A stretch of 64,000 nt of DNA from an uncultured Gemmatimonadota bacterium. Its GTDB lineage: Bacteria > JAAXHH01. Position numbers and translations under genes: made by a program. Positions 32,944-44,032 of this stretch are shown here, piece by piece. Position 1 is the stretch's first letter. The number at the start of each line of letters is the position of its first letter. The stretch spans positions 32,001 to 96,000 of the forward strand of contig OX638340.1 of assembly GCA_951812955.1 (NCBI GenBank), written 5' to 3'. The notes under the pieces are model-generated. The model saw only the letters and a list, made by a program, of their open reading frames with translations. It ran no database searches and was not told the DNA's origin.

Positions 32944-33622
32944 CCGGGAGCCCGGGGCGCGATGCACGAACCATATATCCAGATTAAACTCATCCAAAAA
33001 CATGGCGCCAAGATTCCGGGGTTTTATTGGGTACGGGTATGGTTCGGAACTGATCAGACTTGACAACAACTTAGTTCAGAGATTAAACTGATGTACAAAT
33101 AACTTATAGAACGCGTCCAGGCCGTTCTCGCCTGGGCACTTGTATTTACACCGTAACAGGATCAGGCGGAACGATGATTCGGACGGTAAGACGCGGTATC
33201 GGTACGGTCGTGATTTGGTTGATCACAACGCTGGTTCGATTGGGGAAACGGTTAATGCGGAATCGGAAACGAGGCGTTGCCTAGCGGAGGATGTGGCGCG
33301 GGCAGCACGGTAGGCAACGAGGGTCGAACCGGAAATCGGATGACGATTGGCAAACGGCCGGTAGTAACGTTAATCACCGATACGATATGCCAGCCGGGGG
33401 GGTGGTACAATACCCGGCGGCGATACAATAGCCGACTACCACATCGAGTATGACTCGCGAGATGGGACCACAAAAGGCGGAAGGATTCGCCGGTTGTGGT
33501 TTTTTTTGTGCGTGGATCCCGGCTCGGTACCTTAGTCATCAAACAGCGTACTTATTCCGAGAACTATACCGATGCTTCCGCTCAATAGATATATAGTCGA
33601 CATACAAAACCATATTGAGACT

Positions 33623-34693
33623 CTATTGACGAGCATTCGTCAGGTCTTCCAATTCATCTTCTTTGTAGGTGGCAGGTACCCATTCACGCGACAGGTATGG
33701 CTTGTCAATTTCGTCCAACTGTAATGCATCACGGTACCATTTGGGTAGGCCAGCTGTCGGCGGATTATCTGGATGGTAAATCGGCCGGTTCCATTGCGGC
33801 ATGCCGACTTCCGGCCAATGATCCTTGTCGTACTTCATAGGATATACCCACCAGAGTCCCAAATTAGATTCAACCAGGAAAATCTCGTCAGGCAAATAAG
33901 TACGCCCAGCAAGTAGAGTTGGTAACTGGTTCCCGATGAGGTCGAATCTCGTATGAGCTGCGTCCTGGCTTTCTAAAACCAGGACGGTTCGTGCTCCATC
34001 AGCACGACACTTCGCCAACTTTGGAAACTTGTCAGCAAAAGCTCTACGGATCCGTTCCGTCCGACAGCTTTCCAAGTCTTCGGGATAGTCAAGTACCGTT
34101 TGAACAAAGCCCGGCTTTCGTCCTGCCTTAATCCCATTCCGCCACCTCAGCAATTCGACTGTACAGTTTATACACGAGAGATCGTCTTTGATGCTATCGT
34201 CGGGAAAACAGTAAAGGCTGATTGGGATTCCATGGCAGTCGATAGGTAAAGACAGTAAGGTATTCCTCTCGTACATGGTCTGGGCACTGCTTAGAATCCA
34301 TTCGGCAAGGTTCTTCAAAGCCCTAACTCGTTTGACTTTCCCCCTGGGCAGACAAACATCTGTTGGTACTTGAAGCACGTAGTACATGGGATCTGGTAAC
34401 TGGCCGGCGAGGCTTTGTATCAAGTACTGTCTAATCTCCACGACGGTTAACTCAGTTTTAATATTGTTCTCAAAGGGTTCAATTATTGTGTGCTCAATCG
34501 CGTATTCTTGTTCACCCAATTTCATACGCAATTCCACTGGCGGCCCTACTCGATCACTCTCAGGATGACGTATTTCAGATCGTTTCTTCCGAGTGCGTCT
34601 TTCCATAGTCTTCACAACCGCGTCGCACGCCTTGCCCTCGTTTTTAGGTACGATTACGTGCGGTTTACTGTATGGAGTCTCGTTATTCTTCAT
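33623..34693 (-). CDS. Hypothetical protein at the island edge
   Basis: 356 aa, low GC, no recognisable motifs. Standalone gene with intergenic regions of 450 nt or more on both sides. Confidence 0.4.
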   Translation of the reverse strand: MKNNETPYSKPHVIVPKNEGKACDAVVKTMERRTRKKRSEIRHPESDRVGPPVELRMKLGEQEYAIEHTIIEPFENNIKTELTVVEIRQYLIQSLAGQLPDPMYYVLQVPTDVCLPRGKVKRVRALKNLAEWILSSAQTMYERNTLLSLPIDCHGIPISLYCFPDDSIKDDLSCINCTVELLRWRNGIKAGRKPGFVQTVLDYPEDLESCRTERIRRAFADKFPKLAKCRADGARTVLVLESQDAAHTRFDLIGNQLPTLLAGRTYLPDEIFLVESNLGLWWVYPMKYDKDHWPEVGMPQWNRPIYHPDNPPTAGLPKWYRDALQLDEIDKPYLSREWVPATYKEDELEDLTNARQ

Positions 34694-35149
34694 CGTTTCC
34701 TAATCTAAATGTAATTAACGGAAAATCGCTGTTGATGGCTGAGTCAGACCCTTTCACCAGTCTTCCGATCCGGTAGCCTTCTGTAGCCTTCTACTGATTA
34801 CAACTTCCAAACCTAATCCAGGAGCCATGCGCCTTGTGGAGATTGCCCCTCTGCAGTAGGGCGGCAGGTCACGAAAGAATCCGTGGACCACTCCAGTAAG
34901 ATTTCACGTAGCATCGCCTACTCGCCCTGACTGTCAAATGCAACCTAGCCATCGGTAACACCAAGCGTGATTCACTAAAGACGGTAAGCCCATGAAGTCT
35001 TCACGGTTCAAAGAAACTCCGAATTCCCTTATCTACGGGTTTTAAAGGGTTATGTAGGGGAGGTGTTGGCAACTGCTAATGGATGTTTCAGAGGGTGGGA
35101 ATGCGGTGTTGAGGCAACTCATAATAGTCCTGGTGATATCTAATCCCCA

Positions 35150-35635
35150 TCACAAGTTGTTTGTACGTCGGAGTAATTTGGATGATACCCAACTCCATGC
35201 TTTCCAAACAAACGAGGTTTTAGTTAGTAAGCCTTGCTCTTTATCAGTCTCCATACGGTCATCGGAGTTGAAAAACCGGTTGATTTCCAATCTATGGTTA
35301 CTTCGCTCCTCAAGAATCTCACGTGTAGACCATCGGCGTGACCAATGAACTTTGTTATTTTCGATCCAATAATGTGATTGACACTCCTCACTCCAATTTC
35401 CCACAGAGGGCCGGAGACTTATAGATAACCCATTGTAAATAAACGCCCACCCAGTGGGATGTAACGGTGTGTTTATCTCGCTACCACACCCACATGCACA
35501 TTTATGGATTACAGTACGGTACTTCAGCGAAATGTAAATTCGACCGTCTTCTAAACGGTTGGGTACAACATCCGAGAAGACCGGGGTAAATTCAGTCGTT
35601 TTTGAAGACCGTTCTAATCGTTTTGTTTTGCACAC
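35150..35635 (-). CDS. Small Cys-rich (HKCACGCG) predicted metal-binding protein, last gene of the E1/Ubl operon
   Basis: 161 aa. Its start overlaps the E1 gene stop by about 22 nt. CxCxCx cluster plus two further Cys residues. Confidence 0.45.
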   Translation of the reverse strand: MCKTKRLERSSKTTEFTPVFSDVVPNRLEDGRIYISLKYRTVIHKCACGCGSEINTPLHPTGWAFIYNGLSISLRPSVGNWSEECQSHYWIENNKVHWSRRWSTREILEERSNHRLEINRFFNSDDRMETDKEQGLLTKTSFVWKAWSWVSSKLLRRTNNL

Positions 35636-36831
35636 TCGACGTAGTCCCGGTTTATTATCTTGTTTCCGTCCATTATATATCCGGAATCACCCTCATGAAC
35701 TAAGTCTTGAAATACACCTCGGATTTTCTTCCATTTTATTACTGCCAATGCTGCATTGAGGGCGTTTAGTTCTGCCAATTGTATGTTTCTTTCGTACTCT
35801 CCAACATCTCCTCCTGCCATATCGATACGATTCTTCTCTGTCACATGGCCCCTATTGCCCGGTTCACTAGTAGTCGTTCGGAGTATCCCGCCTAGTCTAT
35901 CTCCTTCACGATAAATCCCCATCCCGGTATCAATACAAACGCTCTCGGCATCTTCGCAAATCCTAAATATAGATTGTTTTATGGCATGGCCATCAATACA
36001 CAGGAAAACTGTATCGTGTCCTTTTAACTCATTAACGTTTTCCTCCACAATCTTAGTGGGATGTGCAACAATACCGCGACGCATACGACTGTAGCGTTCG
36101 AAATGAAACTCTGATTTGATGGGGCCTCCTTCCAATTCTTCAACCGCTACTGCTCCCGGTGCTCGAAATGAGTTGTGCTGAAGAAAACGGTCATCGTCAT
36201 ACAGATGGATCTCTTTAACCCATGTCTTAGCAACATAGTCGAGAACGTAAGCCCCGGTCCCACCTAAACCAACAATTGCTACAGTCTCCCCTTCCAATCT
36301 CGAAGATATATCTGTTGTATTTTGACGGGCTGACGCTGTTTCCATAAACGCGAATACATTCGAATTGCTCTCGGATTTCGCGACTTTCCACTTCTGCGCC
36401 GACGTTGACGAGTCGATTTTCCTAGCTTCTCGCGTTATGATTTCAATATAGGTTCTTACTTTGTGTTCATAATCTATGTACCGCCCGCCTTCCGGCTTGG
36501 CTGAAAACATATAGGTTAACTTTAGACCATTGCTCAGAATCTGGTTGTGGCCGCTTTCACCCAGAACCTCAAGCTTCTGTGAATTCCCGTCATACGGAAA
36601 TTCTCCTGTCCAATAGGCCACGTGGTCACCTGGTTGACTAGTTCTCTCGCCTCTGAGGTCAAGTTGCATTACTAATGTTGCCTCTGCAATTCCTCCAACA
36701 CTGGTAACATAAGGCACATCTTGTATTAGAAGGTAGCCATCTATAAATCGGATTGTATATCCGGATTCCTCTATGCGTTTCAGATCCGTATTACGAGCGA
36801 TCAGTGCGTGTGACATTGAATACTGTCCCAT
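35614..36831 (-). CDS. E1-like ThiF/MoeB-family adenylyltransferase with a cysteine-free N-terminal domain of about 190 aa (possible E2/UEV-like)
   Basis: ThiF Rossmann motif VAIVGLGGTGAYVLDYVAKTWVKEIHLYDDD. The N-terminal half contains no Cys. Confidence 0.7.
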   Translation of the reverse strand: MGQYSMSHALIARNTDLKRIEESGYTIRFIDGYLLIQDVPYVTSVGGIAEATLVMQLDLRGERTSQPGDHVAYWTGEFPYDGNSQKLEVLGESGHNQILSNGLKLTYMFSAKPEGGRYIDYEHKVRTYIEIITREARKIDSSTSAQKWKVAKSESNSNVFAFMETASARQNTTDISSRLEGETVAIVGLGGTGAYVLDYVAKTWVKEIHLYDDDRFLQHNSFRAPGAVAVEELEGGPIKSEFHFERYSRMRRGIVAHPTKIVEENVNELKGHDTVFLCIDGHAIKQSIFRICEDAESVCIDTGMGIYREGDRLGGILRTTTSEPGNRGHVTEKNRIDMAGGDVGEYERNIQLAELNALNAALAVIKWKKIRGVFQDLVHEGDSGYIMDGNKIINRDYVECAKQND

Positions 36832-37060
36832 CCTTTATCTTCACATTTTCGCCTTCGCTCAAACCACCTTCTTGTTCACGTCCACCACCTTCATAAAACA
36901 GCACTGTGTAACTAATTAAAGCGCCACGACCACCATCCGGGTAAGCTAAATCCACTATTTCGTCAAAAGTCACTTCGTCATGGTCTACGGTGTACGGACG
37001 TGCATTGATTATGATATCAAAACCCTTGTTCTCTAGACTTTGCTGAGGTTCTTTTTCCAT
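36791..37060 (-). CDS. Small beta-grasp ubiquitin-like protein, multiubiquitin-family-like
   Basis: About 89 aa from the internal ATG (MEKEPQQ). Pattern FDIIINARPYTV..VTFDEIVDLA...ENVKIKDGTVFNVTRTDRS resembles the Multi_ubiq family. Its 3' end overlaps the E1 start. Confidence 0.45.
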   Translation of the reverse strand: MEKEPQQSLENKGFDIIINARPYTVDHDEVTFDEIVDLAYPDGGRGALISYTVLFYEGGGREQEGGLSEGENVKIKDGTVFNVTRTDRS

Positions 37061-37089
37061 ATTAATGGCTTCCGCCTCCTTATCGGGAT

Positions 37090-37629
37090 TCAGGCTATGT
37101 CCCTGATGCCCAATGTCAACCCTCCTGAGCGAACGAATTCCCTCCATAGAGGTGACAACAATTGAGCTGCAACTGGAGCTTCACGAGAAGAAAGTATAAT
37201 TTGTAATTCTCTCCTTTCATCTAAAGGTGCCTCTTTCCATATATTGTACAAATCCCAGCAGTTTCCGTCCGTCAAAATACCGTACCTTACCCCGACCTCA
37301 GTACAGTATGTCAACATCTGAGTGCGGTGTGTGTTGAGATCCTCGTTCAGTTTTTTTGCCTCGACTAGAACCAGTGGCTTTCTATCTTCTCCAAGTAATG
37401 CGTAGTCAACACGCTGATTCGCTTGATTTCCTGTACGGAATTCAACTTCTACATGCTCTACGATGCTAACGTCCCAAGCAAGGGCTTTCAATACCGGATC
37501 CACTAATACATTCCTTGTCCTTATCTCATTTTTCTGGAGGTATTCTCCGTGTTTTACTATTACCTCACGTGCTCGTTGTAGCGTGCTTACCAAGGGTTCT
37601 AACAAATCAGTCATAAACTCCCTCACCAC
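37090..37629 (-). CDS. PD-(D/E)XK restriction-endonuclease-like protein (HsdR N-terminal-domain-like), first gene of the operon
   Basis: 179 aa. RVDYALLGEDRKPLVLVEAKKL gives the D...EAK catalytic motif, followed by QMLTY...GILTDG. Confidence 0.6.
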   Translation of the reverse strand: MVREFMTDLLEPLVSTLQRAREVIVKHGEYLQKNEIRTRNVLVDPVLKALAWDVSIVEHVEVEFRTGNQANQRVDYALLGEDRKPLVLVEAKKLNEDLNTHRTQMLTYCTEVGVRYGILTDGNCWDLYNIWKEAPLDERRELQIILSSREAPVAAQLLSPLWREFVRSGGLTLGIRDIA

Positions 37630-37982
37630 TAAGTGAGCGATTCCCCAGTTGAACTTCTCTACTATAATATACGGCTAGCGGATCTGTACATATTACTTAA
37701 CGTATGATTCGTATGGAACTCTGTCAAATAGATTTCAACTTGAATACAATGTCATTGCTGAATAGATCGTAGCCATATCTCATCTACACCATTGAGTAGC
37801 ATATTGGATTACGCGCGGCGGTTTGGTAATATCGCGCATTCAGGTAGTTGGCGATGCACTTGGCACGCCGCACGGTCCCTGCAGATACGCCACAGAGCCA
37901 ACTCAGGCATGCACGAGTCATTTAACATCAGCCCTAGAAAATGCCCTTGACATCATATGATTTATGAGTCATGTTATGATGT

Positions 37983-38351
37983 ATGAAATGGGAAGTCGAT
38001 TTCCATCCGGCGTTTGATCCCGAGTTTGCCGCCATGGCACTGAAGGTGCAGGACGAACTGCTTACACAAGCAAAGCTCTTGGAGGAGTTCGGACCAACAT
38101 TAGGTCGTCCGCGGGTGGATACGCTAAATGGTTCGCGGCATGCTAATATGAAGGAACTTCGTTTTACTATGACTGGCGGAGTCTGGCGGGTCGCATTTGC
38201 TTTCGACCCCGAACGTAAGGCCATGCTACTGGTTGCCGGCGATAAATCGGGAGTCGGTGAACAACGGTTCTACCAGCAACTGATCAGGAAGGCGGATCAC
38301 CGCTTCGATCTACATCTTGAACTGTTGAAAGCTGAGAGGAGGCCAAGATGA
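37983..38351 (+). CDS. Type II toxin, RelE/HigB-like (phage Gp49-like addiction-module killer)
   Basis: 122 aa. KELRFTMTGGVWRVAFAFDPERKAMLLVAGDK matches the HigB/Gp49 family pattern. Confidence 0.7.
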   Translation: MKWEVDFHPAFDPEFAAMALKVQDELLTQAKLLEEFGPTLGRPRVDTLNGSRHANMKELRFTMTGGVWRVAFAFDPERKAMLLVAGDKSGVGEQRFYQQLIRKADHRFDLHLELLKAERRPR

Positions 38352-38698
38352 GTACGTTGACGGACAGAATGGACAAGCTGTCCCCGTCCCGACGGAAGAA
38401 GGTAGAAGAACGGGCCAGGGCGTTGATCGCCGAAGAAATGTCGCTACGGGACTTGCGCAAGGCTCGAAAGCAGACGCAGATGCGGGTCGCCGAGAAGCTC
38501 GGGATCAATCAGGAAAACGTGTCCCGCCTTGAACAGCGCAGTGATCTCTTGATTTCCACCCTCAGCGGCTATGTCGAGGCGATGGGGGGTAAACTGAGTC
38601 TGGTGGCGGAGTTTCCGGACCGGCCGCCAGTGGCGCTGACTGGCATTGCGGCACTCGACGACCTTTTGGAGCGGCCTGCAGAATCTCGTACCGGATGA
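38348..38698 (+). CDS. HTH (XRE-family) antitoxin, HigA-like
   Basis: 116 aa. HTH region MSLRDLRKARKQTQMRVAEKLGINQENVSRLEQ. 4-nt ATGA overlap with the toxin gene. Confidence 0.7.
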   Translation: MSTLTDRMDKLSPSRRKKVEERARALIAEEMSLRDLRKARKQTQMRVAEKLGINQENVSRLEQRSDLLISTLSGYVEAMGGKLSLVAEFPDRPPVALTGIAALDDLLERPAESRTG

Positions 38699-38964
38699 AG
38701 AGAGGATCGCGATATGGTCGCAGGCGGGTCGCTAAACGTCGAAAACACACCGGTTCCCGGGTGTCGCGAATCTCAGATTTGGGATATATAACTACAGTGA
38801 GGCGGGACCGGCCTTGGCCTTAGTGGCAAAACGCCTACGATCGATCAGTTCGCATTCCACGCTTGTGAAGATTCTCTTGCACAGCACGTTGTCATAGTAG
38901 TCGTTTACCGAGCCCATAGATGGCCAGATGCCAGCCGTGCAAACCGGTGCCCGTCGGAGCGAAC

Positions 38965-40140
38965 TCATCCACTAGGCGTTCGTCCACCGACCTCCGTCGA
39001 GATTTGTAGAATATACATCAGTGACGGATCGGATTTGAGGAGAATGGCCCGCAGCTGTTCGTCGGTTAGCTTTGTCTCCAATTCGTGGACCCGGTTGAAA
39101 AACTCGATCAGCTTCACCAGTGCTTTGGTGTCTTGGATCACGAATTCAGACAGCGGATCGTTGTACAACTCCCGACAGACGTACAGTACCCTCGCTCGAC
39201 GGGTTGGCTTGCCCTCATGTAGCAGATCCTTCTGATTAGCTAGGCTCAGAATCCATGCAGTAACTAGATCGTCGGGGGCTAATCGTCGGAGCAAATGGTT
39301 CCACAGCTCCCTGAGGGAGGTCAGAATGTGCCGTGCCCGGTCGGCACTGTTTCCATTCAGGGCATCTCGAGCGCCGATGTATGGCCCAGCGAGACTTGGA
39401 TCGACCTGTTGCAGCAGAATGATGCAGTCGGATGTTTCTAACTCTGCCTCGGCGACAAACTGGAATTCCGTTTCGGCCTCTTCTTCGTCCCGTTCACCCC
39501 AGGGGCGAAGAGTTTTGAGCGCGAAGCTGGTAGTGTAGATTTCACGAGTGGCGCCTGGCAAAACGAAAGCAGGTAAGCGCGTAATGTCCGAGACCTCCCG
39601 CAGTGAACCGGCCAAACTTCCATATGAGGCAGCCACCTGGGCAATCGAACTCTCCAGCCCTGAAATGGCGGGCATCTTGATTTGGAATTGACTCCCTATG
39701 GCCTTGAAATCGATGTTCGCCATGAGTCGTTCCGTGGCGATCAATTGCAAAGAAGTATCGCCCAGGGCCAACTTAGCGGATGCTTGAAGCTGGAAAAGTT
39801 GGGAAACTCCCTGTTGAAGAAGATTCGACTGGTCAAGCCAGGATTCATGAGTGGTATGCAGACTCTCGGCAATCCAGTTAGAAGCGGTAGTCTGTTTGAT
39901 CACATCATGCCAGTGTTGATTGGCGTTGGCGATCTCTTTAATCCCGGCCACTGCTTCAGGTATTTCGAGGGCACGACTGATTTCCATTTGATGGAGACGG
40001 AATGGTTCTATCGTGCGTTCTAACTGTTCTATAACGCCTAGGTAGGATGGCTTGGCCAAACGGTTGGAAGCCTCCATGTCCTGACGGAGTTTGCCGATGG
40101 CGGATTTTGCGGACATCAGATCTTCGGAGAGAATATCCAT
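38965..40140 (-). CDS. Hypothetical protein, third gene downstream of SIR2-HerA
   Basis: 391 aa soluble protein with no recognised motifs. 83 nt downstream of herA on the same strand. Confidence 0.45.
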   Translation of the reverse strand: MDILSEDLMSAKSAIGKLRQDMEASNRLAKPSYLGVIEQLERTIEPFRLHQMEISRALEIPEAVAGIKEIANANQHWHDVIKQTTASNWIAESLHTTHESWLDQSNLLQQGVSQLFQLQASAKLALGDTSLQLIATERLMANIDFKAIGSQFQIKMPAISGLESSIAQVAASYGSLAGSLREVSDITRLPAFVLPGATREIYTTSFALKTLRPWGERDEEEAETEFQFVAEAELETSDCIILLQQVDPSLAGPYIGARDALNGNSADRARHILTSLRELWNHLLRRLAPDDLVTAWILSLANQKDLLHEGKPTRRARVLYVCRELYNDPLSEFVIQDTKALVKLIEFFNRVHELETKLTDEQLRAILLKSDPSLMYILQISTEVGGRTPSG

Positions 40141-40223
40141 ATTTTGATGTTAGTCCCGGAGTTGTCAAATTGCAAGGCTGTGTGGATGTTTGGGTATGCT
40201 GGTACCTTCAACCTCAATTGAAA

Positions 40224-41915
40224 TCATCGGCGCTGATATCTCCAACGCTTAACAACATCTTGAATTTCCGAGTCAGGAGTTGCATCGTTTTGCCACCCCT
40301 TATCGAAGTCAATGTCATTTGATTTCGGTAGCTGATCAGGATTTAAATCACGTATTAGGATGCGCGACGGCAACATTGCAGCTTGGCCAACGAAAATTGC
40401 CTCTTGCCTCCGTAAACCAGAAAGCATCTTTGTCAGACCAGACATCGAATCTGGTAGAATGGATCGAACATGCTCCCTGTCGGCGTCATTGGTGATTCGC
40501 ATAACAATCCAGCTATTGCATTGTGAAAGAACCGTTGCCTCAACTTCGCTTGGGCGCTGGGATACCAACAGGAGCCCTACACCATACTTTCGACCTTCCT
40601 TAGCAACACGCCTGATTGCTTCTTGAGCAGCCTCATATTGCGCTTCGCCCCGATTTGGAACGTAGCGATGAGCTTCTTCACATACCAGTAAAACTGGGTC
40701 AGATTCGCGCTCTGATTGGGTTTGCCAAATCTTCAGATTGAATAAAGTTCGAGCAATTACCGCACTTGATACACCGGCTACTTCATTGGGGACACCGGAC
40801 AGATCTACTATTCTTGGTTGAGACCCATCCCCGATAAGTTGCTTGATAACAGTAAGAAAAGGATCGTTATTTTCCCATTCTGACATCATGAATCGGAGTC
40901 GAGCATCGGTCATTAAGACTTCGAGTTTTTGGAGTATCGAGTTATGAGAATCTTGTTTGCTGAGCGCAGTTGGCTTATCCGCTTCAATCTTTTCTATAAG
41001 CCTCGATAACTTGTATGGTACGGGGGAATCAACAGTTATGAGATTGACATCAAGACCTAGCTGATGCGCACCTTCTTCGCGGGCGTAGATTAAGGCTCTC
41101 TTTACGATGTTAGCTTGTGAGGTCGCAACAAATTCAGTTCTTCCGATCAACAAGGCAACCGTCTCTTGAAAGTTCAAGAGCCAGTATGGAAGTGTTAGTG
41201 TTCCGTCATCAGAGGAAAGTTTAGTATGATCAGTAAATGCGCTGCCGTATTCACCATGGGGGTCGAGTATAATAACCCTGGGCTTCCATTTCGTATATGA
41301 TCTAGTGTCACCTCTATCAAGAATACTGTGAATGATAGCTGCGACCGTACCTGACTTGCCAGCGCCAGTGGAGCCGAGAACGGCTGTGTGTTTACCAAGT
41401 AGTTCATTCAAATCTGCAAAACATGGGGTCCCGCCTGAACCTACATGCTGCCCGAGCTGAACAACGGCACTTTTCGCTTTCCCGTAAATAAAACGCAATT
41501 CAGCTTTTGGAGTCAGATAGACAGTTTGCTGTGGGAGTGGATAGGTTGATACCCCACGTTCAAAAAAAAGCTTCCATTCACTAGATGTCCCATGAATCCA
41601 TTCGCCTTCGCCGAACAGGTCTGCTTCGACGATTCTTTCATCCGAAGATGATGCTGACACCAATCCTCGTTCTGCTTGAAATTCTGATTTCATCCTTAGT
41701 CGGCCGACCAACGCGTAGACGGTTTGACGCCCGAAATGGACTTTGACAATGGAACCAAATTGTCCGATGGGATAGGTTTCTCCCGCATACACACGCGAGA
41801 GTTCAGAAAGAGTCGGATTTAACTCGGCAACAAGGTGAGATCCATCAACTTCAATTATCTTGCCGATTGCCAGATTCTCAATTGGCTCATTGGGATTGCG
41901 AGTCGAAACACTCAT
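40224..41915 (-). CDS. HerA/FtsK-like ATPase (DUF87) of a SIR2-HerA defence pair
   Basis: Walker A LGSTGAGKSGT. Walker B LLVCEEAHRY, followed by LLLVSQRPSEV. 563 aa. 4-nt start/stop overlap with the sir2 gene. Confidence 0.8.
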   Translation of the reverse strand: MSVSTRNPNEPIENLAIGKIIEVDGSHLVAELNPTLSELSRVYAGETYPIGQFGSIVKVHFGRQTVYALVGRLRMKSEFQAERGLVSASSSDERIVEADLFGEGEWIHGTSSEWKLFFERGVSTYPLPQQTVYLTPKAELRFIYGKAKSAVVQLGQHVGSGGTPCFADLNELLGKHTAVLGSTGAGKSGTVAAIIHSILDRGDTRSYTKWKPRVIILDPHGEYGSAFTDHTKLSSDDGTLTLPYWLLNFQETVALLIGRTEFVATSQANIVKRALIYAREEGAHQLGLDVNLITVDSPVPYKLSRLIEKIEADKPTALSKQDSHNSILQKLEVLMTDARLRFMMSEWENNDPFLTVIKQLIGDGSQPRIVDLSGVPNEVAGVSSAVIARTLFNLKIWQTQSERESDPVLLVCEEAHRYVPNRGEAQYEAAQEAIRRVAKEGRKYGVGLLLVSQRPSEVEATVLSQCNSWIVMRITNDADREHVRSILPDSMSGLTKMLSGLRRQEAIFVGQAAMLPSRILIRDLNPDQLPKSNDIDFDKGWQNDATPDSEIQDVVKRWRYQRR

Positions 41916-43072
41916 CTTTCACCTCCAAGCAGGCGGGTCAAGTTTTCAAATTTCCACCAAAGTAGGTCGGTGTCGGATGGTGCTTTTTTGCTGCCGTGAA
42001 AGAAGCCAAGATTAGCAAAAATAAGTACTTGCTCGGTTATGGAGTCATCATCATGCCATCTCTTAAGTAGGCCTTTTGGTTCATCATCAGAGGTAAACAC
42101 CACGACGGTAAGACGACCGTCAGATTCACGTAACGCCCGGTCGATTTCGAGATTGATGTGTGAATCACCAAAGCGGTACCCGCACGTAATCAGTATTTTT
42201 TGCGAACCTGAAACAGCCGTTAGTGCTTTCCGCCCATATTCTGCCAATTGAGCATAGGGGTCTCTTTGAGTTTCACGGTATTTGGTGGATGCTGGCCAAA
42301 TGAGAATCTTGTTTTTACCCCCGGATTGTACTTTGACATTACCGGAAACTCGGCGAGGGAGTGGATCACCATCGAACTCGCACCAGTTTATTGAACCGTG
42401 CAGTTTGAAGATCCTCGACGAGAGTCCATCACGCTCAAAATCCGCAGGATTCCACCATCCGGTGACTCCGCCTTCCAGACCATCTGAAAAGGAAACTCGC
42501 TCAAGCGCGAGTGCATCTTCAAGAAGCGTGTCGTAGTTGAGGCAGAGATAGTCCACACGATCAAAGTTGCCCGTTTTACCAGGCCGAATTGGGCGATGAA
42601 CCGCCTTTACGAATTTGCGATGAACCACTACATCGATTTGCTCGTCATTGTGCTCGATTATATTGGAAATGATACGCTTTATATCTTCTGCAGATTCCCT
42701 TAGTTGCTGGCCAGAATATCGATTGTCTTTGATAGTGATCTGGTCATCGGTTGCGCCTCGCTCCGCCCTTCTTTCAGCGATGGCCAGAAGGTCGATTATT
42801 TCACTAAGGTAGTCCTCAATATCTGGATCACTCGCACCGGTGAAACCTTCCTTAATTCCCTTGAGGATCTCTGTGGTATAGTCACTCAAAGCACCTATTT
42901 CCAGTACTTTAGTAGTTAGTTCTTCCATCAATGGTAAACCCGCGCATTTGCTACAACCTGCACCAATTAGGAACACTTTCCCATGCTGGACCATAAGTTC
43001 GTCTAGCGTATCATAAGCTTCAACTAATTGAGGGGTATCCCATATTGCGTCAAGATTGTCAGGTGCGCTCAT
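41912..43072 (-). CDS. SIR2-family (DHS-like NAD-binding) protein, putative NADase effector
   Basis: VFLIGAGCSKCAGLP (a sirtuin GAGxS-like motif) and KLHGSINW. 386 aa. Confidence 0.75.
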   Translation of the reverse strand: MSAPDNLDAIWDTPQLVEAYDTLDELMVQHGKVFLIGAGCSKCAGLPLMEELTTKVLEIGALSDYTTEILKGIKEGFTGASDPDIEDYLSEIIDLLAIAERRAERGATDDQITIKDNRYSGQQLRESAEDIKRIISNIIEHNDEQIDVVVHRKFVKAVHRPIRPGKTGNFDRVDYLCLNYDTLLEDALALERVSFSDGLEGGVTGWWNPADFERDGLSSRIFKLHGSINWCEFDGDPLPRRVSGNVKVQSGGKNKILIWPASTKYRETQRDPYAQLAEYGRKALTAVSGSQKILITCGYRFGDSHINLEIDRALRESDGRLTVVVFTSDDEPKGLLKRWHDDDSITEQVLIFANLGFFHGSKKAPSDTDLLWWKFENLTRLLGGER

Positions 43073-43405
43073 ATTAACCCTTTCTCATTTTATCATACTC
43101 CAATTTCCTGACTTCATTGCTATTCATGTGTCGCTATGCCATTAACTTCAACAACACGTCGTCTAGACCAAACCGATCATTCAAGGATTTAGCTATCCGA
43201 ACGAGTTTCGGACTTGGTCCGGAGTAAATAGAGAATCAGTCGCCCAAAGTGAGAGAATGTGTGACGGACAGGGAAAATCGACGATGTGGAACGGTTGTTC
43301 GAGAGGACATTAACAGACGCAATCTCTTAGAAACAAGTGCAAAAAACCCGTCATCCCCGAGAATGAGCCAGACCCTAGAGAGACGGGTTGTCTTTTTAGA
43401 ATTGA

Positions 43406-43766
43406 TGGAGGTGGGGGGAATCGAACCCCCGTCCGAAAGTGCCTAAGCGGAAACTTCTACATGCGTAGCCTGTTGTTTAATCTCGTTCCGGAGAACTCCA
43501 GCAGGCAGGATTTAACCGGAACCAGCCTCAGTTGAGTCTCGCCTGGCGCCCTGAGGCGCGACGCCCGGCCAGCCTGCTTTATCGACGCTTTTGACCATCC
43601 CGCAGGCGGGGCTGATCAAAAACGGGCCGGCCTAAGTTACCTTAGGCAGCCATTGCATACGAAGGTTCGTCTGCAGATAAATTGTTCCCAATGGTTTTAC
43701 GAGGTTATCGGGGACCTCGGCACGCGATTCCCGCCGCATCCACTCCCGTCGAATCCTTTCACCCCC
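43406..43766 (-). ncRNA. ssrA: tmRNA (SsrA); the predicted tag reading frame encodes ADEPSYAMAA followed by TAA
   Basis: On the minus strand the 5' end reads GGGGGTGAAAGGATTCGACGGG and the 3' tRNA-like end reads TTTCGGACGGGGGTTCGATTCCCCCCACCTCCA. The internal frame is GCA GAC GAA CCT TCG TAT GCA ATG GCT GCC TAA. Confidence 0.85.
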
Positions 43767-43880
43767 ATGTCAAAGAACATAGGCCATTTGGGCGCTTCTG
43801 TCAAATTCGCCCGGCCGCGATGGTTCGGTTGCATCATGATACGGCAGCACCATGGTACGGCTGCATCGCGGTTTGGCCAG

Positions 43881-43953
<73 letters not shown>

Positions 43954-43959
43954 ATTCCA

Positions 43960-44032
43960 TGAGCGCGGAAGGAATCGAACCTTCGACCCACAGATTAAAA
44001 GTCTGTTGCTCTGCCAACTGAGCTACGCGCCC
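43960..44032 (-). tRNA. tRNA-Lys (anticodon TTT)
   Basis: Minus strand: GGGCGCGTAGCTCAGTTGGCAGAGCAACAGACTTTTAATCTGT...GGTTCGATTCCTTCCGCGCTCA. Confidence 0.85.

What the first reader, a model, noticed from the sequence alone, without database searches (positions are those of the whole stretch)
35150..35635. Cys-rich HKCACGCG small protein translationally coupled to the E1 gene
Seen: a 161-aa ORF whose start overlaps the E1 stop by about 22 nt. It has a dense C-x-C-x-C-G cluster plus further Cys/His residues (HKCACGCGSEINTPLHPTGW; EECQSHYW). Inference: either the predicted metal-binding partner known from E1/multiubiquitin neighbourhoods, or a highly divergent E2 whose catalytic Cys lies next to an HPx motif in reversed order. 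Its role in this operon is unknown.
Basis: partly seen in the sequence, partly recalled or inferred. Interest (0 to 1): 0.55.

Follow-up and report, generated by a model that had tools for sequence, protein, structure and literature searches.

The report
BubE protease of a Bub operon
The Cys-rich small ORF is an ordinary member of the published BubE (DUF6527) family, a zinc-binding serine protease thought to strip a bacterial ubiquitin-like tag off proteins, and it lies in a standard Type II "Bub" operon on a defence island.

Summary
A 161-aa ORF lies on the minus strand at 35150..35635. It has a GTG start that overlaps the stop of the upstream E1-type gene by 22 nt, and it carries the quoted HKCACGCG and EECQSHYW motifs.

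The ORF is not an unknown protein or a divergent E2. It matches Pfam PF20137 (DUF6527, now called BubE) at 80 bits.

The operon is a canonical Type II Bub (formerly "6E.2") operon:
- BubA, a Multi_ubiq ubiquitin-like protein.
- BubBD, a DUF6791 E2 domain fused to a ThiF E1.
- BubE, the ORF in question.

The four invariant cysteines (C46, C48, C50, C85) correspond to the published C4 zinc finger. S77 and H88 correspond to the published Ser-His catalytic dyad. The real E2 is the N-terminal domain of the upstream protein: it has an invariant Ser110, and the E1 part has an invariant Tyr346.

In 79 of 80 related genome loci an E1 relative lies directly upstream of the BubE relative. In 72 of 78 loci the two genes overlap.

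The most likely function, by homology to Citrobacter BubE, is cleavage of BubA-target conjugates. This has not been tested for this protein.

The only mildly new element is a conserved small PD-(D/E)xK protein encoded as a fourth gene of the operon. Interest is low.

The parts
35150..35635 (-). bubE: 161-aa DUF6527/BubE protein with a GTG start. The last three bases are the stop codon.
   Evidence: The ORF is listed. It matches PF20137 at E 1e-22 and 80.3 bits, against a cut-off of 23.6. The identical protein is in NCBI/ENA.
35330..35587 (-). BubE core domain (aa 17-102), an eight-strand beta-sandwich. It contains the zinc ligands C46 (35498-35500), C48, C50 (35486-35488) and C85 (35381-35383). 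It also contains the predicted dyad S77 (35405-35407) and H88 (35372-35374).
   Evidence: These residues are invariant or near-invariant in 120 and in 51 homologs. They align to a Type I BubE that has C57/C59/C61, S91, C98 and H101. The AF2 model has 8 strands between aa 17 and 98, with block-mean pLDDT of 71-94.
35153..35230 (-). BubE C-terminal amphipathic extension (aa 136-161, LLTKTSFVWKAWSWVSSKLLRRTNNL). It is rich in Trp, Lys and Arg.
   Evidence: The segment is 46% hydrophobic, with 5 K/R, 0 D/E and 3 W. The model predicts a helix at aa 140-158. Homologs have a similar tail. The preprint describes hydrophobic N- or C-terminal extensions as a family feature.
35614..36831 (-). bubBD: the E2-E1 fusion. 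The ORF is 405 aa, and the probable true start is M6 at 36816. The E2-like DUF6791 domain spans aa 16-165 and carries H70, S110 and K124. The ThiF adenylation domain runs from aa 177 and carries G188xGGxG193, R223, D301 and the crossover-loop Y346.
   Evidence: Pfam hits are DUF6791 plus ThiF. NCBIfam NF004805 matches aa 6-396. Invariant residues come from a 75-sequence alignment. They sit at a constant +4 offset from the published E. coli S106, R219 and Y342.
36791..37147 (-). bubA: a Multi_ubiq ubiquitin-like protein with a single beta-grasp domain. The ORF is 118 aa, and the probable true start is M30 at 37060, giving 89 aa. It ends in ...TRTDRS-COOH.
   Evidence: PF14452 matches at E 4e-14. 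Homologs from stop-to-stop ORFs or called genes are 89-100 aa. It matches the last beta-grasp domain of E. coli ZDHYS365 BubA (PDB 9cd2), which ends in ...TQTDKS. The C-terminal Ser is invariant in 73 of 73 loci.
37090..37629 (-). Accessory fourth gene: a small stand-alone PD-(D/E)xK (HSDR_N-like) protein. The ORF is 179 aa, and the probable start is M6 at 37614, giving 174 aa. The D...ExK motif (VDYAL...VEAKK) is intact.
   Evidence: Pfam hits are HSDR_N and HSDR_N_2. The motif is conserved in the alignment. The gene is linked to Type II Bub operons in L001, L039, L061 and L081-L084.
37661..37690 (-). Promoter-like site (TGTACA-18-TATAGT) upstream of the four-gene operon.
   Evidence: This is a consensus scan result only. 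The number of such sites in the region does not exceed that in shuffled sequence, so the support is weak.

Best explanation

Operon layout:
- The operon reads PD-(D/E)xK protein, BubA, BubBD, BubE on the minus strand.
- All gene junctions overlap or nearly abut, so the proteins are probably made together.

Mechanism by homology to the characterised systems:
- BubBD adenylates the C-terminal carboxylate of the ubiquitin-like BubA.
- BubBD then carries BubA as a Tyr346 oxyester and next as a Ser110 oxyester.
- It finally transfers BubA to lysines of unknown targets.
- BubE is a small beta-sandwich held together by a C4 zinc site (C46, C48, C50, C85).
- BubE binds the last beta-grasp domain of BubA.
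- BubE uses a Ser77-His88 dyad to hydrolyse the bond at the BubA C-terminus. This removes BubA from targets and restrains or edits the pathway.
- Its Trp/Lys-rich C-terminal helix may hold it at the membrane.

Inference about maturation: BubA here is already encoded with its conserved terminal Ser exposed, so BubE is not needed to mature it. Deconjugation is therefore the likeliest role.

Shown here: family membership, residue conservation, operon context and predicted fold.

Inferred from published work on Citrobacter and E. coli proteins: zinc binding, protease activity and the oxyester chemistry.

My confidence that this is a BubE family member is about 0.97. My confidence that it acts as a deconjugating Ser-His protease is about 0.7.
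For: - Pfam: PF20137 at 80 bits, and it is the only hit even at E<=10.
- Conservation: C46, C48, C85, S77 and H88 are invariant, and C50 is present in 119 of 120 homologs.
- Alignment to a Type I BubE whose CxCxC sits at 57/59/61, as in the characterised Citrobacter protein. This places window S77, C85 and H88 on its S91, C98 and H101. Citrobacter has S92, C99 and H102.
- AF2 model: 8 strands plus C-terminal helices, matching the published description of 8 strands and a hydrophobic extension.
- Operon partners:
  - Multi_ubiq BubA. PDB 9cd2 is its relative.
  - DUF6791+ThiF BubBD, with invariant H70, S110, K124, R223 and Y346, and no conserved Cys in the crossover loop. These match the published S106, R219, Y342 and the Lys+His pair.
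- Context in related genomes: a BubBD relative lies directly upstream in 79 of 80 genome loci, and BubA is present in 73 of 80. The same gene order is annotated on plasmids.
- Published experiments:
  - Citrobacter BubE cleaves BubA-GFP, and this depends on S92 and H102.
  - Zn2+ enhances the cleavage.
  - Wild-type BubE, but not the S92A or H102A mutants, erases BubA-target conjugates in cells.
- Genomic setting: a low-GC island next to the tmRNA and tRNA-Lys genes, with SIR2-HerA nearby. This fits the published placement of Bub operons in mobile or defence loci.
Against: - Nothing has been measured for this protein.
- The published protease activity is very weak in vitro, needing 48-h incubations. 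No experimental BubE structure exists.
- The authors themselves considered a Ubl-transfer role.
- A second serine, S87, next to H88, is also invariant. The nucleophile assignment therefore rests on alignment to Citrobacter S92, with a one-residue indel between the Ser and the fourth Cys.
- The AF2 model is only moderately confident overall (mean pLDDT 76.5, pTM 0.59). I could not measure the Ser-His or Cys4 geometry.
- Bub operons have not been shown to protect against phage, and their targets are unknown.
- The characterised BubE is from a Type I operon. The Type II enzyme was only modelled.
Confidence: 0.8

Rival explanations
1. BubE is not a hydrolase in vivo. Instead it is an E3-like or transfer factor. 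It would bind the BubA C-terminus and use Ser77 to accept BubA as a further oxyester, passing it on to targets or to a non-protein acceptor.
For: - The preprint states that the Ser/His pair near the BubA C-terminus is compatible with either Ubl transfer or proteolysis.
- In vitro proteolysis is extremely slow.
- The pathway already uses Ser and Tyr oxyesters.
- No E3 is encoded in the operon.
Against: - In cells, wild-type BubE abolishes BubA-target conjugates, and the S92A and H102A mutants restore them. An obligatory transfer factor would give the opposite result.
- BubA, BubB and BubCD, or BubA and BubBD, form conjugates without BubE.
Confidence: 0.1
2. One reading: the ORF is a highly divergent E2 whose catalytic Cys lies in the HKCACGCG cluster, near an HPx motif.
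For: - It is a small protein in an E1/Ubl operon.
- It has conserved His-Pro (H59-P60) and Cys residues.
Against: - There is no Pfam hit to any UQ_con or Prok-E2 family, even at E<=10.
- The four invariant Cys form the C4 zinc site described for the family.
- The operon already has an E2 domain (DUF6791), with an invariant Ser at the published catalytic position.
Confidence: 0.02
3. It is a catalytically inert zinc-binding adaptor. It would merely sequester BubA or tether the Bub machinery to the membrane.
For: - A zinc site and a membrane-like amphipathic tail are the most obvious sequence features.
- In vitro activity is weak.
Against: - S77 and H88 are invariant across Type I, Type II and even orphan members. 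This is hard to explain without catalysis.
- Point mutants of the equivalent Ser and His abolish the effect on conjugates in cells.
Confidence: 0.05
4. It is a spurious ORF created by chance on the strand opposite to, or overlapping, real genes.
For: - The start is a GTG.
- No strong Shine-Dalgarno sequence is evident upstream.
- Gene callers miss the homologous ORF on some metagenome contigs.
Against: - There are 782 relatives with 24 invariant residues.
- The Pfam hit is 80 bits.
- Synteny is conserved in 79 of 80 loci.
- The same protein is annotated in NCBI.
Confidence: 0.005

Closest known systems
BubE (DUF6527, Pfam PF20137) of Bub operons. Described in Ye, Gong, Chambers and Corbett, bioRxiv 10.1101/2024.11.21.623953, cited as Ye et al. 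2026 in PMC13373217.
   Same: - The same Pfam family.
- The same CxCxC...C zinc-ligand set and the same P-S...C-x-S-H dyad motif.
- An eight-strand beta core with a hydrophobic terminal extension.
- The same position as the last gene of a Ubl/E2/E1 operon.
   Different: - The biochemically tested protein (Citrobacter) is from a Type I operon and has its hydrophobic extension at the N-terminus. The window protein is Type II and has its extension at the C-terminus.
- The window protein has a 10-residue N-terminal extension, caused by a GTG start inside bubBD.
- It has one extra residue between the catalytic Ser and the fourth Cys.
The Type II Bub operon of E. coli ZDHYS365. Its BubA structure is PDB 9cd2, and its BubBD was tested in vitro.
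   Same: - BubA-BubBD-BubE gene order, with no JAB peptidase.
- The BubA C-terminus ends in T-D-[KR]-S.
- BubBD Ser, Arg and Tyr sit at a constant +4 offset from S106, R219 and Y342.
   Different: - Window BubA has one beta-grasp domain (about 89 aa). The E. coli protein has three (222 aa).
- The window operon has an extra upstream PD-(D/E)xK gene.
- No CapW, CapH+CapP or CapK+CapS regulator is adjacent. The neighbours are a Gp49/HTH pair.
Cap3 (a JAB/JAMM peptidase) of Type II CBASS, and BilC of Bil systems.
   Same: The proposed role is the same: a peptidase encoded with an E1/E2 ligase that reverses the conjugation made by that ligase.
   Different: - The fold and chemistry are unrelated. 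Cap3 and BilC are JAB metalloproteases. BubE is a Ser-His dyad on a fold without solved relatives, and its zinc is structural.
- BubE is not a member of that family.
Prokaryotic E2 families (Pfam Prok-E2_A to E, and UQ_con).
   Same: Only the genomic neighbourhood with E1 and Ubl genes is shared.
   Different: There is no sequence or fold similarity and no free catalytic Cys. The E2 of this operon is the DUF6791 domain of BubBD.

Membership tests
BubE / DUF6527 (PF20137) | Match to the family HMM above the curated threshold | tested here: met
   The score is 80.3 bits against a cut-off of 23.6, at E 1e-22, covering profile positions 2-62 of 63. It is the only Pfam hit at E<=10.
BubE / DUF6527 (PF20137) | Four conserved cysteines of the C4 zinc finger (C57, C59, C61 and C99 in Citrobacter) | tested here: met
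   C46, C48, C50 and C85 are present. They are conserved in 120, 120, 119 and 120 of 120 homologs. They align to C57, C59, C61 and C98 of a Type I BubE. Actual metal binding was not tested.
BubE / DUF6527 (PF20137) | Invariant Ser-His catalytic dyad (S92 and H102 in Citrobacter) | tested here: met
   S77 and H88 are invariant in 120 of 120 homologs. They align to S91 and H101 of a Type I BubE. Caveat: S87 is also invariant.
BubE / DUF6527 (PF20137) | Compact eight-strand beta-sandwich with a hydrophobic N- or C-terminal extension and no close structural homolog | tested here: met
BubE / DUF6527 (PF20137) | Peptidase or isopeptidase activity on BubA fusions and conjugates, enhanced by Zn2+ | not testable with these tools
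   This is known only for Citrobacter BubE.
Type II Bub operon (6E.2) | A Ubl (BubA) with Multi_ubiq beta-grasp domain(s), encoded as a separate gene | tested here: met
   PF14452 matches at E 4e-14. The protein is related to PDB 9cd2, the E. coli Type II BubA.
Type II Bub operon (6E.2) | An E2-E1 fusion (BubBD) with an invariant E2 Ser accompanied by Lys and His, and an invariant crossover-loop Tyr instead of a catalytic Cys | tested here: met
   Pfam hits are DUF6791 plus ThiF. H70, S110, K124, R223 and Y346 are invariant in 73-75 of 75 sequences. No Cys column at 30% or more was found in the crossover loop; the only such columns are positions 80 and 278. There is a +4 offset from the published S106, R219 and Y342.
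Type II Bub operon (6E.2) | BubE present and no JAB/JAMM peptidase | tested here: met
   None of the four operon proteins hits a JAB family. BubE is the last gene.
Type II Bub operon (6E.2) | Adjacent DNA-damage-responsive regulator (CapW/BrxR, CapH+CapP or CapK+CapS). This is frequent but not obligatory. | tested here: not met
   The divergent neighbours are a Gp49 (HigB-like) protein and an HTH protein. No WYL, peptidase or STAS/GHKL protein was found next to the operon. The published association covers only part of the operons, so this does not exclude membership.
E2 ubiquitin-conjugating enzymes (UQ_con, Prok-E2_A to E) | UBC fold with a catalytic Cys (or Ser), detectable by family HMM or by fold comparison | tested here: not met
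Metal_CEHH (PF14455), the 'predicted metal-binding domain' of prokaryotic ubiquitin neighbourhoods. The family is recalled from memory. | Match to PF14455 | tested here: not met
   Only PF20137 is reported at E<=10.

The most novel reading that the evidence does not exclude
The small PD-(D/E)xK (HSDR_N-like) protein encoded as the first gene of this operon is a genuine fourth component of a Bub subclade. It would be either the effector nuclease or the dedicated conjugation target whose activity is switched by BubA attachment (BubBD) and removal (BubE). That would give Bub systems, whose output is still unknown, a concrete effector.
Probability: 0.2. Interest if true: 0.55.

Novelty: already known. 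Interest (0 to 1): 0.18.

Why it matters
The main value of this result is as an annotation. It turns an 'unknown Cys-rich ORF' into a named component, BubE, of a recently characterised ubiquitination-like pathway that runs on oxyester rather than thioester intermediates.

It also corrects the assignment of the E2, which is the N-terminal domain of the 'E1' gene.

This adds one more Type II Bub operon located in a tmRNA-adjacent defence island, beside a SIR2-HerA system. That is in line with the suspected, but still unproven, immune role of Bub.

The recurrent PD-(D/E)xK partner gene could be a lead to the missing effector or target of these systems.

Tried and rejected
- PDB sequence search with the ORF found no hit at E<=1.
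- PADLOC and NCBIfam have no model for the ORF.
- An exact-sequence contig look-up for the ORF's protein found nothing on record. The source genome and organism of the window therefore remain unidentified.
- A cluster look-up gave no names.
- The promoter and terminator scan gave counts no better than shuffled sequence, and no convincing terminator after bubE.
- I searched for a direct repeat of the tmRNA 3' end at the left edge of the low-GC island, to define att sites. No exact repeat of 12 nt or more was found.
- I looked for an alternative, non-overlapping start codon for bubE. None exists between the GTG and the conserved core.
- Rejected ideas: divergent E2, Metal_CEHH-type partner, inert zinc adaptor and spurious ORF (see the rival explanations).
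- I could not obtain the Citrobacter or E. coli BubE sequences themselves. Residue equivalence was therefore established through a Type I BubE from a Synechocystis plasmid that shares the Citrobacter numbering of the CxCxC motif.

Full report
**1. Observation**

The region 35150..35635 holds a 161-aa ORF on the minus strand with a GTG start. The upstream 405-aa gene on the same strand ends at 35614, so the two genes overlap by 22 nt. Between that GTG and the first conserved residue of the family (F20) there is no other ATG, GTG or TTG in frame. If the gene is expressed, the overlapping start must therefore be used. The identical 161-aa protein is already in NCBI/ENA. Relatives at 79-85% identity keep the N-terminal extension.

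**2. Identity of the ORF**

Pfam places the ORF in PF20137 (DUF6527) at 80.3 bits, against a gathering score of 23.6. Nothing else is reported even at E<=10.

The three genes upstream on the same strand are:
- A 405-aa protein with DUF6791 (aa 16-165) followed by ThiF.
- A 118-aa ORF with a Multi_ubiq domain.
- A 179-aa ORF with an HSDR_N-type PD-(D/E)xK domain.

The literature search for DUF6527 led to two preprints from the Corbett laboratory. They rename the '6E/DUF6527' operons Bub, for bacterial ubiquitination-like. A Type II Bub operon is defined as BubA (a Ubl), BubBD (an E2-E1 fusion) and BubE (DUF6527), usually without a JAB peptidase. The precomputed Pfam labels attached to metagenome genes already call PF20137 'BubE'. 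The window operon has exactly this architecture.

**3. Test of the defining residues of BubE**

The preprint gives three defining features for Citrobacter BubE: a C4 zinc finger (C57, C59, C61, C99), an invariant Ser-His dyad (S92, H102), and a compact beta-sandwich of eight strands with a hydrophobic N- or C-terminal extension.

Sequence conservation:
- In an alignment of the 120 best homologs, C46, C48, C85, S77 and H88 of the window protein are invariant, and C50 is present in 119 of 120.
- A 51-sequence alignment gives the same result.

Residue equivalence:
- I could not get the Citrobacter sequence, so I used a Type I operon on a Synechocystis plasmid. Its genes are a WYL regulator, a 366-aa multiubiquitin protein, a 459-aa ThiF protein and DUF6527.
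- Its BubE ORF has the CxCxC at 57/59/61, as in Citrobacter, then a P-S serine at 91, a Cys at 98 and a His at 101.
- These align to window C46/C48/C50, S77, C85 and H88.
- One caveat: S87, next to H88, is also invariant. The choice of S77 as nucleophile therefore rests on this alignment and on the published S92A result.

Predicted structure:
- An AlphaFold2 model built on the 51-sequence alignment has eight strands between residues 17 and 98, with block-mean pLDDT of 71-94. A helix follows at 104-132, and a C-terminal helix at 140-158.
- The tail LLTKTSFVWKAWSWVSSKLLRRTNNL is 46% hydrophobic, with three Trp and five Lys/Arg and no acidic residue. Homologs have similar tails.

**4. Test of the partner proteins**

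BubBD:
- From 80 genome loci that encode relatives of the ORF, I extracted the upstream ORFs.
- In 75 full-length BubBD sequences, the invariant or near-invariant residues are H70, S110, K124 and Y128 in the E2-like domain. In the adenylation domain they are G188xGGxG193, D212, R223, D301 and Y346.
- There is no conserved Cys in the crossover loop.
- The published E. coli residues are S106 (E2), R219 (adenylation) and Y342 (E1 tyrosine), with an accompanying Lys+His pair. The window residues sit at a constant +4 offset.
- NCBIfam and the alignment indicate that the true BubBD start is M6, at 36816.

BubA:
- It probably starts at M30 (37060), giving 89 aa, as in its closest relatives.
- Its C-terminus ...TRTDRS fits the T-[DN]-[KR]-S ending seen in most of the 73 related loci. 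The terminal Ser is invariant in all 73, and the E. coli protein ends the same way.
- BubA is therefore encoded in its mature form, and no processing peptidase is required.

**5. Context conservation**

- A BubBD relative lies immediately upstream of the BubE relative in 79 of 80 loci, and a BubA relative is present in 73 of 80.
- The shortfalls are contig ends and frameshifts. One locus (L002) is different: an IS3-like element has replaced the upstream genes.
- The gap between the bubBD stop and the conserved F20 codon never exceeds 44 nt.
- The most plausible bubE start overlaps the end of bubBD in 72 of 78 loci, and in 36 of them the overlap is the 4-nt type.
- On plasmids, the same trio is annotated as 'multiubiquitin domain-containing protein / ThiF family adenylyltransferase / DUF6527 family protein'.
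- A distant subgroup (24% identity) in Ralstonia megaplasmids keeps all catalytic and zinc residues but has no BubBD or BubA within 4.5 kb.

**6. Mechanism**

By homology, BubBD adenylates the BubA C-terminus, carries it on Tyr346 and then on Ser110 as oxyesters, and transfers it to targets. BubE binds the last beta-grasp domain of BubA and hydrolyses the bond at its C-terminus with the Ser77-His88 dyad.

The supporting experiments were done on Citrobacter BubE:
- It cleaves BubA-GFP slowly, and the cleavage depends on S92 and H102 and is enhanced by Zn2+.
- In cells, wild-type BubE removes BubA-target conjugates, but the S92A and H102A mutants do not.

BubA here needs no maturation, so deconjugation (negative regulation or editing) is the likeliest role. 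The amphipathic C-terminal helix may localise the enzyme at the membrane, as the authors suggest for the family.

None of this chemistry was tested for the window protein. The biological output of Bub operons is still unknown: as of June 2026 no protection against phage had been shown.

**7. Rival explanations**

- **Divergent E2.** Rejected. There is no E2 family hit and no UBC fold. The invariant cysteines are the zinc ligands, and the operon already has its E2 domain.
- **Transfer or E3-like role.** This was considered by the authors. It is contradicted by the in-cell mutant phenotypes.
- **Inert zinc adaptor.** This does not explain the invariance of S77 and H88 across Type I, Type II and orphan members.
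- **Spurious ORF.** Excluded by the conservation evidence.

**8. Surroundings**

- The operon lies in a low-GC stretch (0.45-0.54, against 0.60-0.65 in the flanks) from about 33 to 43.4 kb.
- This stretch abuts a tmRNA gene (43406..43766) and two tRNA-Lys genes.
- The island also carries:
  - A SIR2-HerA defence pair.
  - A protein with a pPIWI-associated nuclease domain.
  - A Gp49/HTH pair, which I read as toxin-antitoxin-like.
- This fits the published observation that Bub operons sit in mobile elements at tRNA-type genes and in defence loci.
- I found no att-type repeat of the tmRNA end.

**9. The accessory gene**

- The PD-(D/E)xK protein (probably 174 aa, starting at 37614) has an intact D...ExK motif.
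- It belongs to a small family of 40 relatives at E<=1e-5.
- Everywhere I looked, it accompanies a Type II Bub operon:
  - In the same first position in L001, L081, L082 and L083.
  - Directly after bubE in L039 and L061.
  - 3.5 kb away in L084.
  - As a remnant in L002.
- Eleven of the 40 relatives share their longest-contig length with BubE hits.
- The main text of the Bub preprint I read does not contain 'nuclease' or 'effector'.
- This is the only element here that may add to what is published. It could be an effector or a dedicated target, but that is speculation.

**10. Verdict**

The finding is real but ordinary. It is a standard member of the published BubE family in a standard Type II Bub operon. 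The E2 alternative is wrong, and 'role unknown' is outdated. Interest is low (0.18) and the novelty rating is 'already known'.

Noticed in passing
window 37090..37629 (-); L001 4965-5528; L039 7447-7971; L061 7395-7898; L081 2098-2619; L082 5001-5522; L083 1815-2336; L084 5001-5879: A small stand-alone PD-(D/E)xK (HSDR_N-like) protein with an intact D...ExK motif. It belongs to a small family of 40 relatives. Wherever I checked, it sits in or beside a Type II Bub operon, usually as the first gene. The main text of the Bub preprint I read does not contain 'nuclease' or 'effector'. It is a candidate effector or target.
   Followed up: partly
window 36791..36808 (-) and the BubA C-termini in 73 loci (L001-L079): Type II BubA proteins end in an invariant C-terminal Ser, with the motif ...T-[DN]-[KR]-S-COOH in most. 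Type I BubA and ubiquitin end in Gly. The E. coli BubA of PDB 9cd2 also ends in ...TDKS. The Bub preprint's main text does not contain the phrase 'C-terminal serine'.
   Followed up: partly
window about 33100..43400; tmRNA 43406..43766 (-); tRNA-Lys 43880..44032 (-): A low-GC island (0.45-0.54, against 0.60-0.65 in the flanks) abuts the 3' end of a tmRNA gene. It carries the Bub operon, a SIR2 (41912..43072) and HerA (40224..41915) defence pair, a 391-aa protein with a pPIWI-associated nuclease domain (38965..40140), and a Gp49/HTH toxin-antitoxin-like pair (37983..38698). No integrase and no att repeat were found.
   Followed up: partly
L086 4462-4866 (Ralstonia solanacearum OE1-1 megaplasmid, CP009763.1). 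Similar hits H26-H28.: An orphan DUF6527 homolog (24% identity) with the CxCxC, P-S and C-x-S-H motifs intact, but with no BubBD or BubA within 4.5 kb. It lies between acyl-CoA dehydrogenase genes and IS5 elements. BubE-like proteins can therefore exist outside Bub operons.
   Followed up: partly
L081 4092-4544; L082 7036-7365; L083 3850-4179: On these metagenome contigs the bubE ORF is present by tblastn but was not called as a gene. In L082 and L083, a 57-aa gene on the opposite strand was called there instead. BubE is probably under-annotated where its start overlaps bubBD.
   Followed up: yes
L002 5585-6978: This is the one locus that lacks BubA and BubBD. An IS3-like transposase pair sits directly upstream of bubE, next to a fragment of the PD-(D/E)xK gene. 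The operon has been disrupted by an insertion sequence.
   Followed up: partly
window 33623..34693 (-): A 356-aa ORF lies 456 nt downstream of bubE on the same strand. It has no hit in Pfam, NCBIfam or PADLOC, and no relative in any of the 80 Bub loci. Its function is unknown.
   Followed up: partly
window 38792..38968 (-): A 58-aa ORF whose sequence (…GSVNDYYDNVLCKRIFTSVECELIDRRRF…) looks, from memory, like the C-terminal end of an IS3-family transposase. It may be an IS remnant inside the island. It has no Pfam hit at E<=0.01.
   Followed up: no
BubE alignment columns equivalent to window residues 36/37 and 67: About half of the 120 closest BubE homologs have additional cysteines at positions 36 or 37 (57 and 54 sequences) and at position 67 (54 sequences). 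The window protein has S36, L37 and Y67. This may be a second metal site or a disulfide in a subclade.
   Followed up: no
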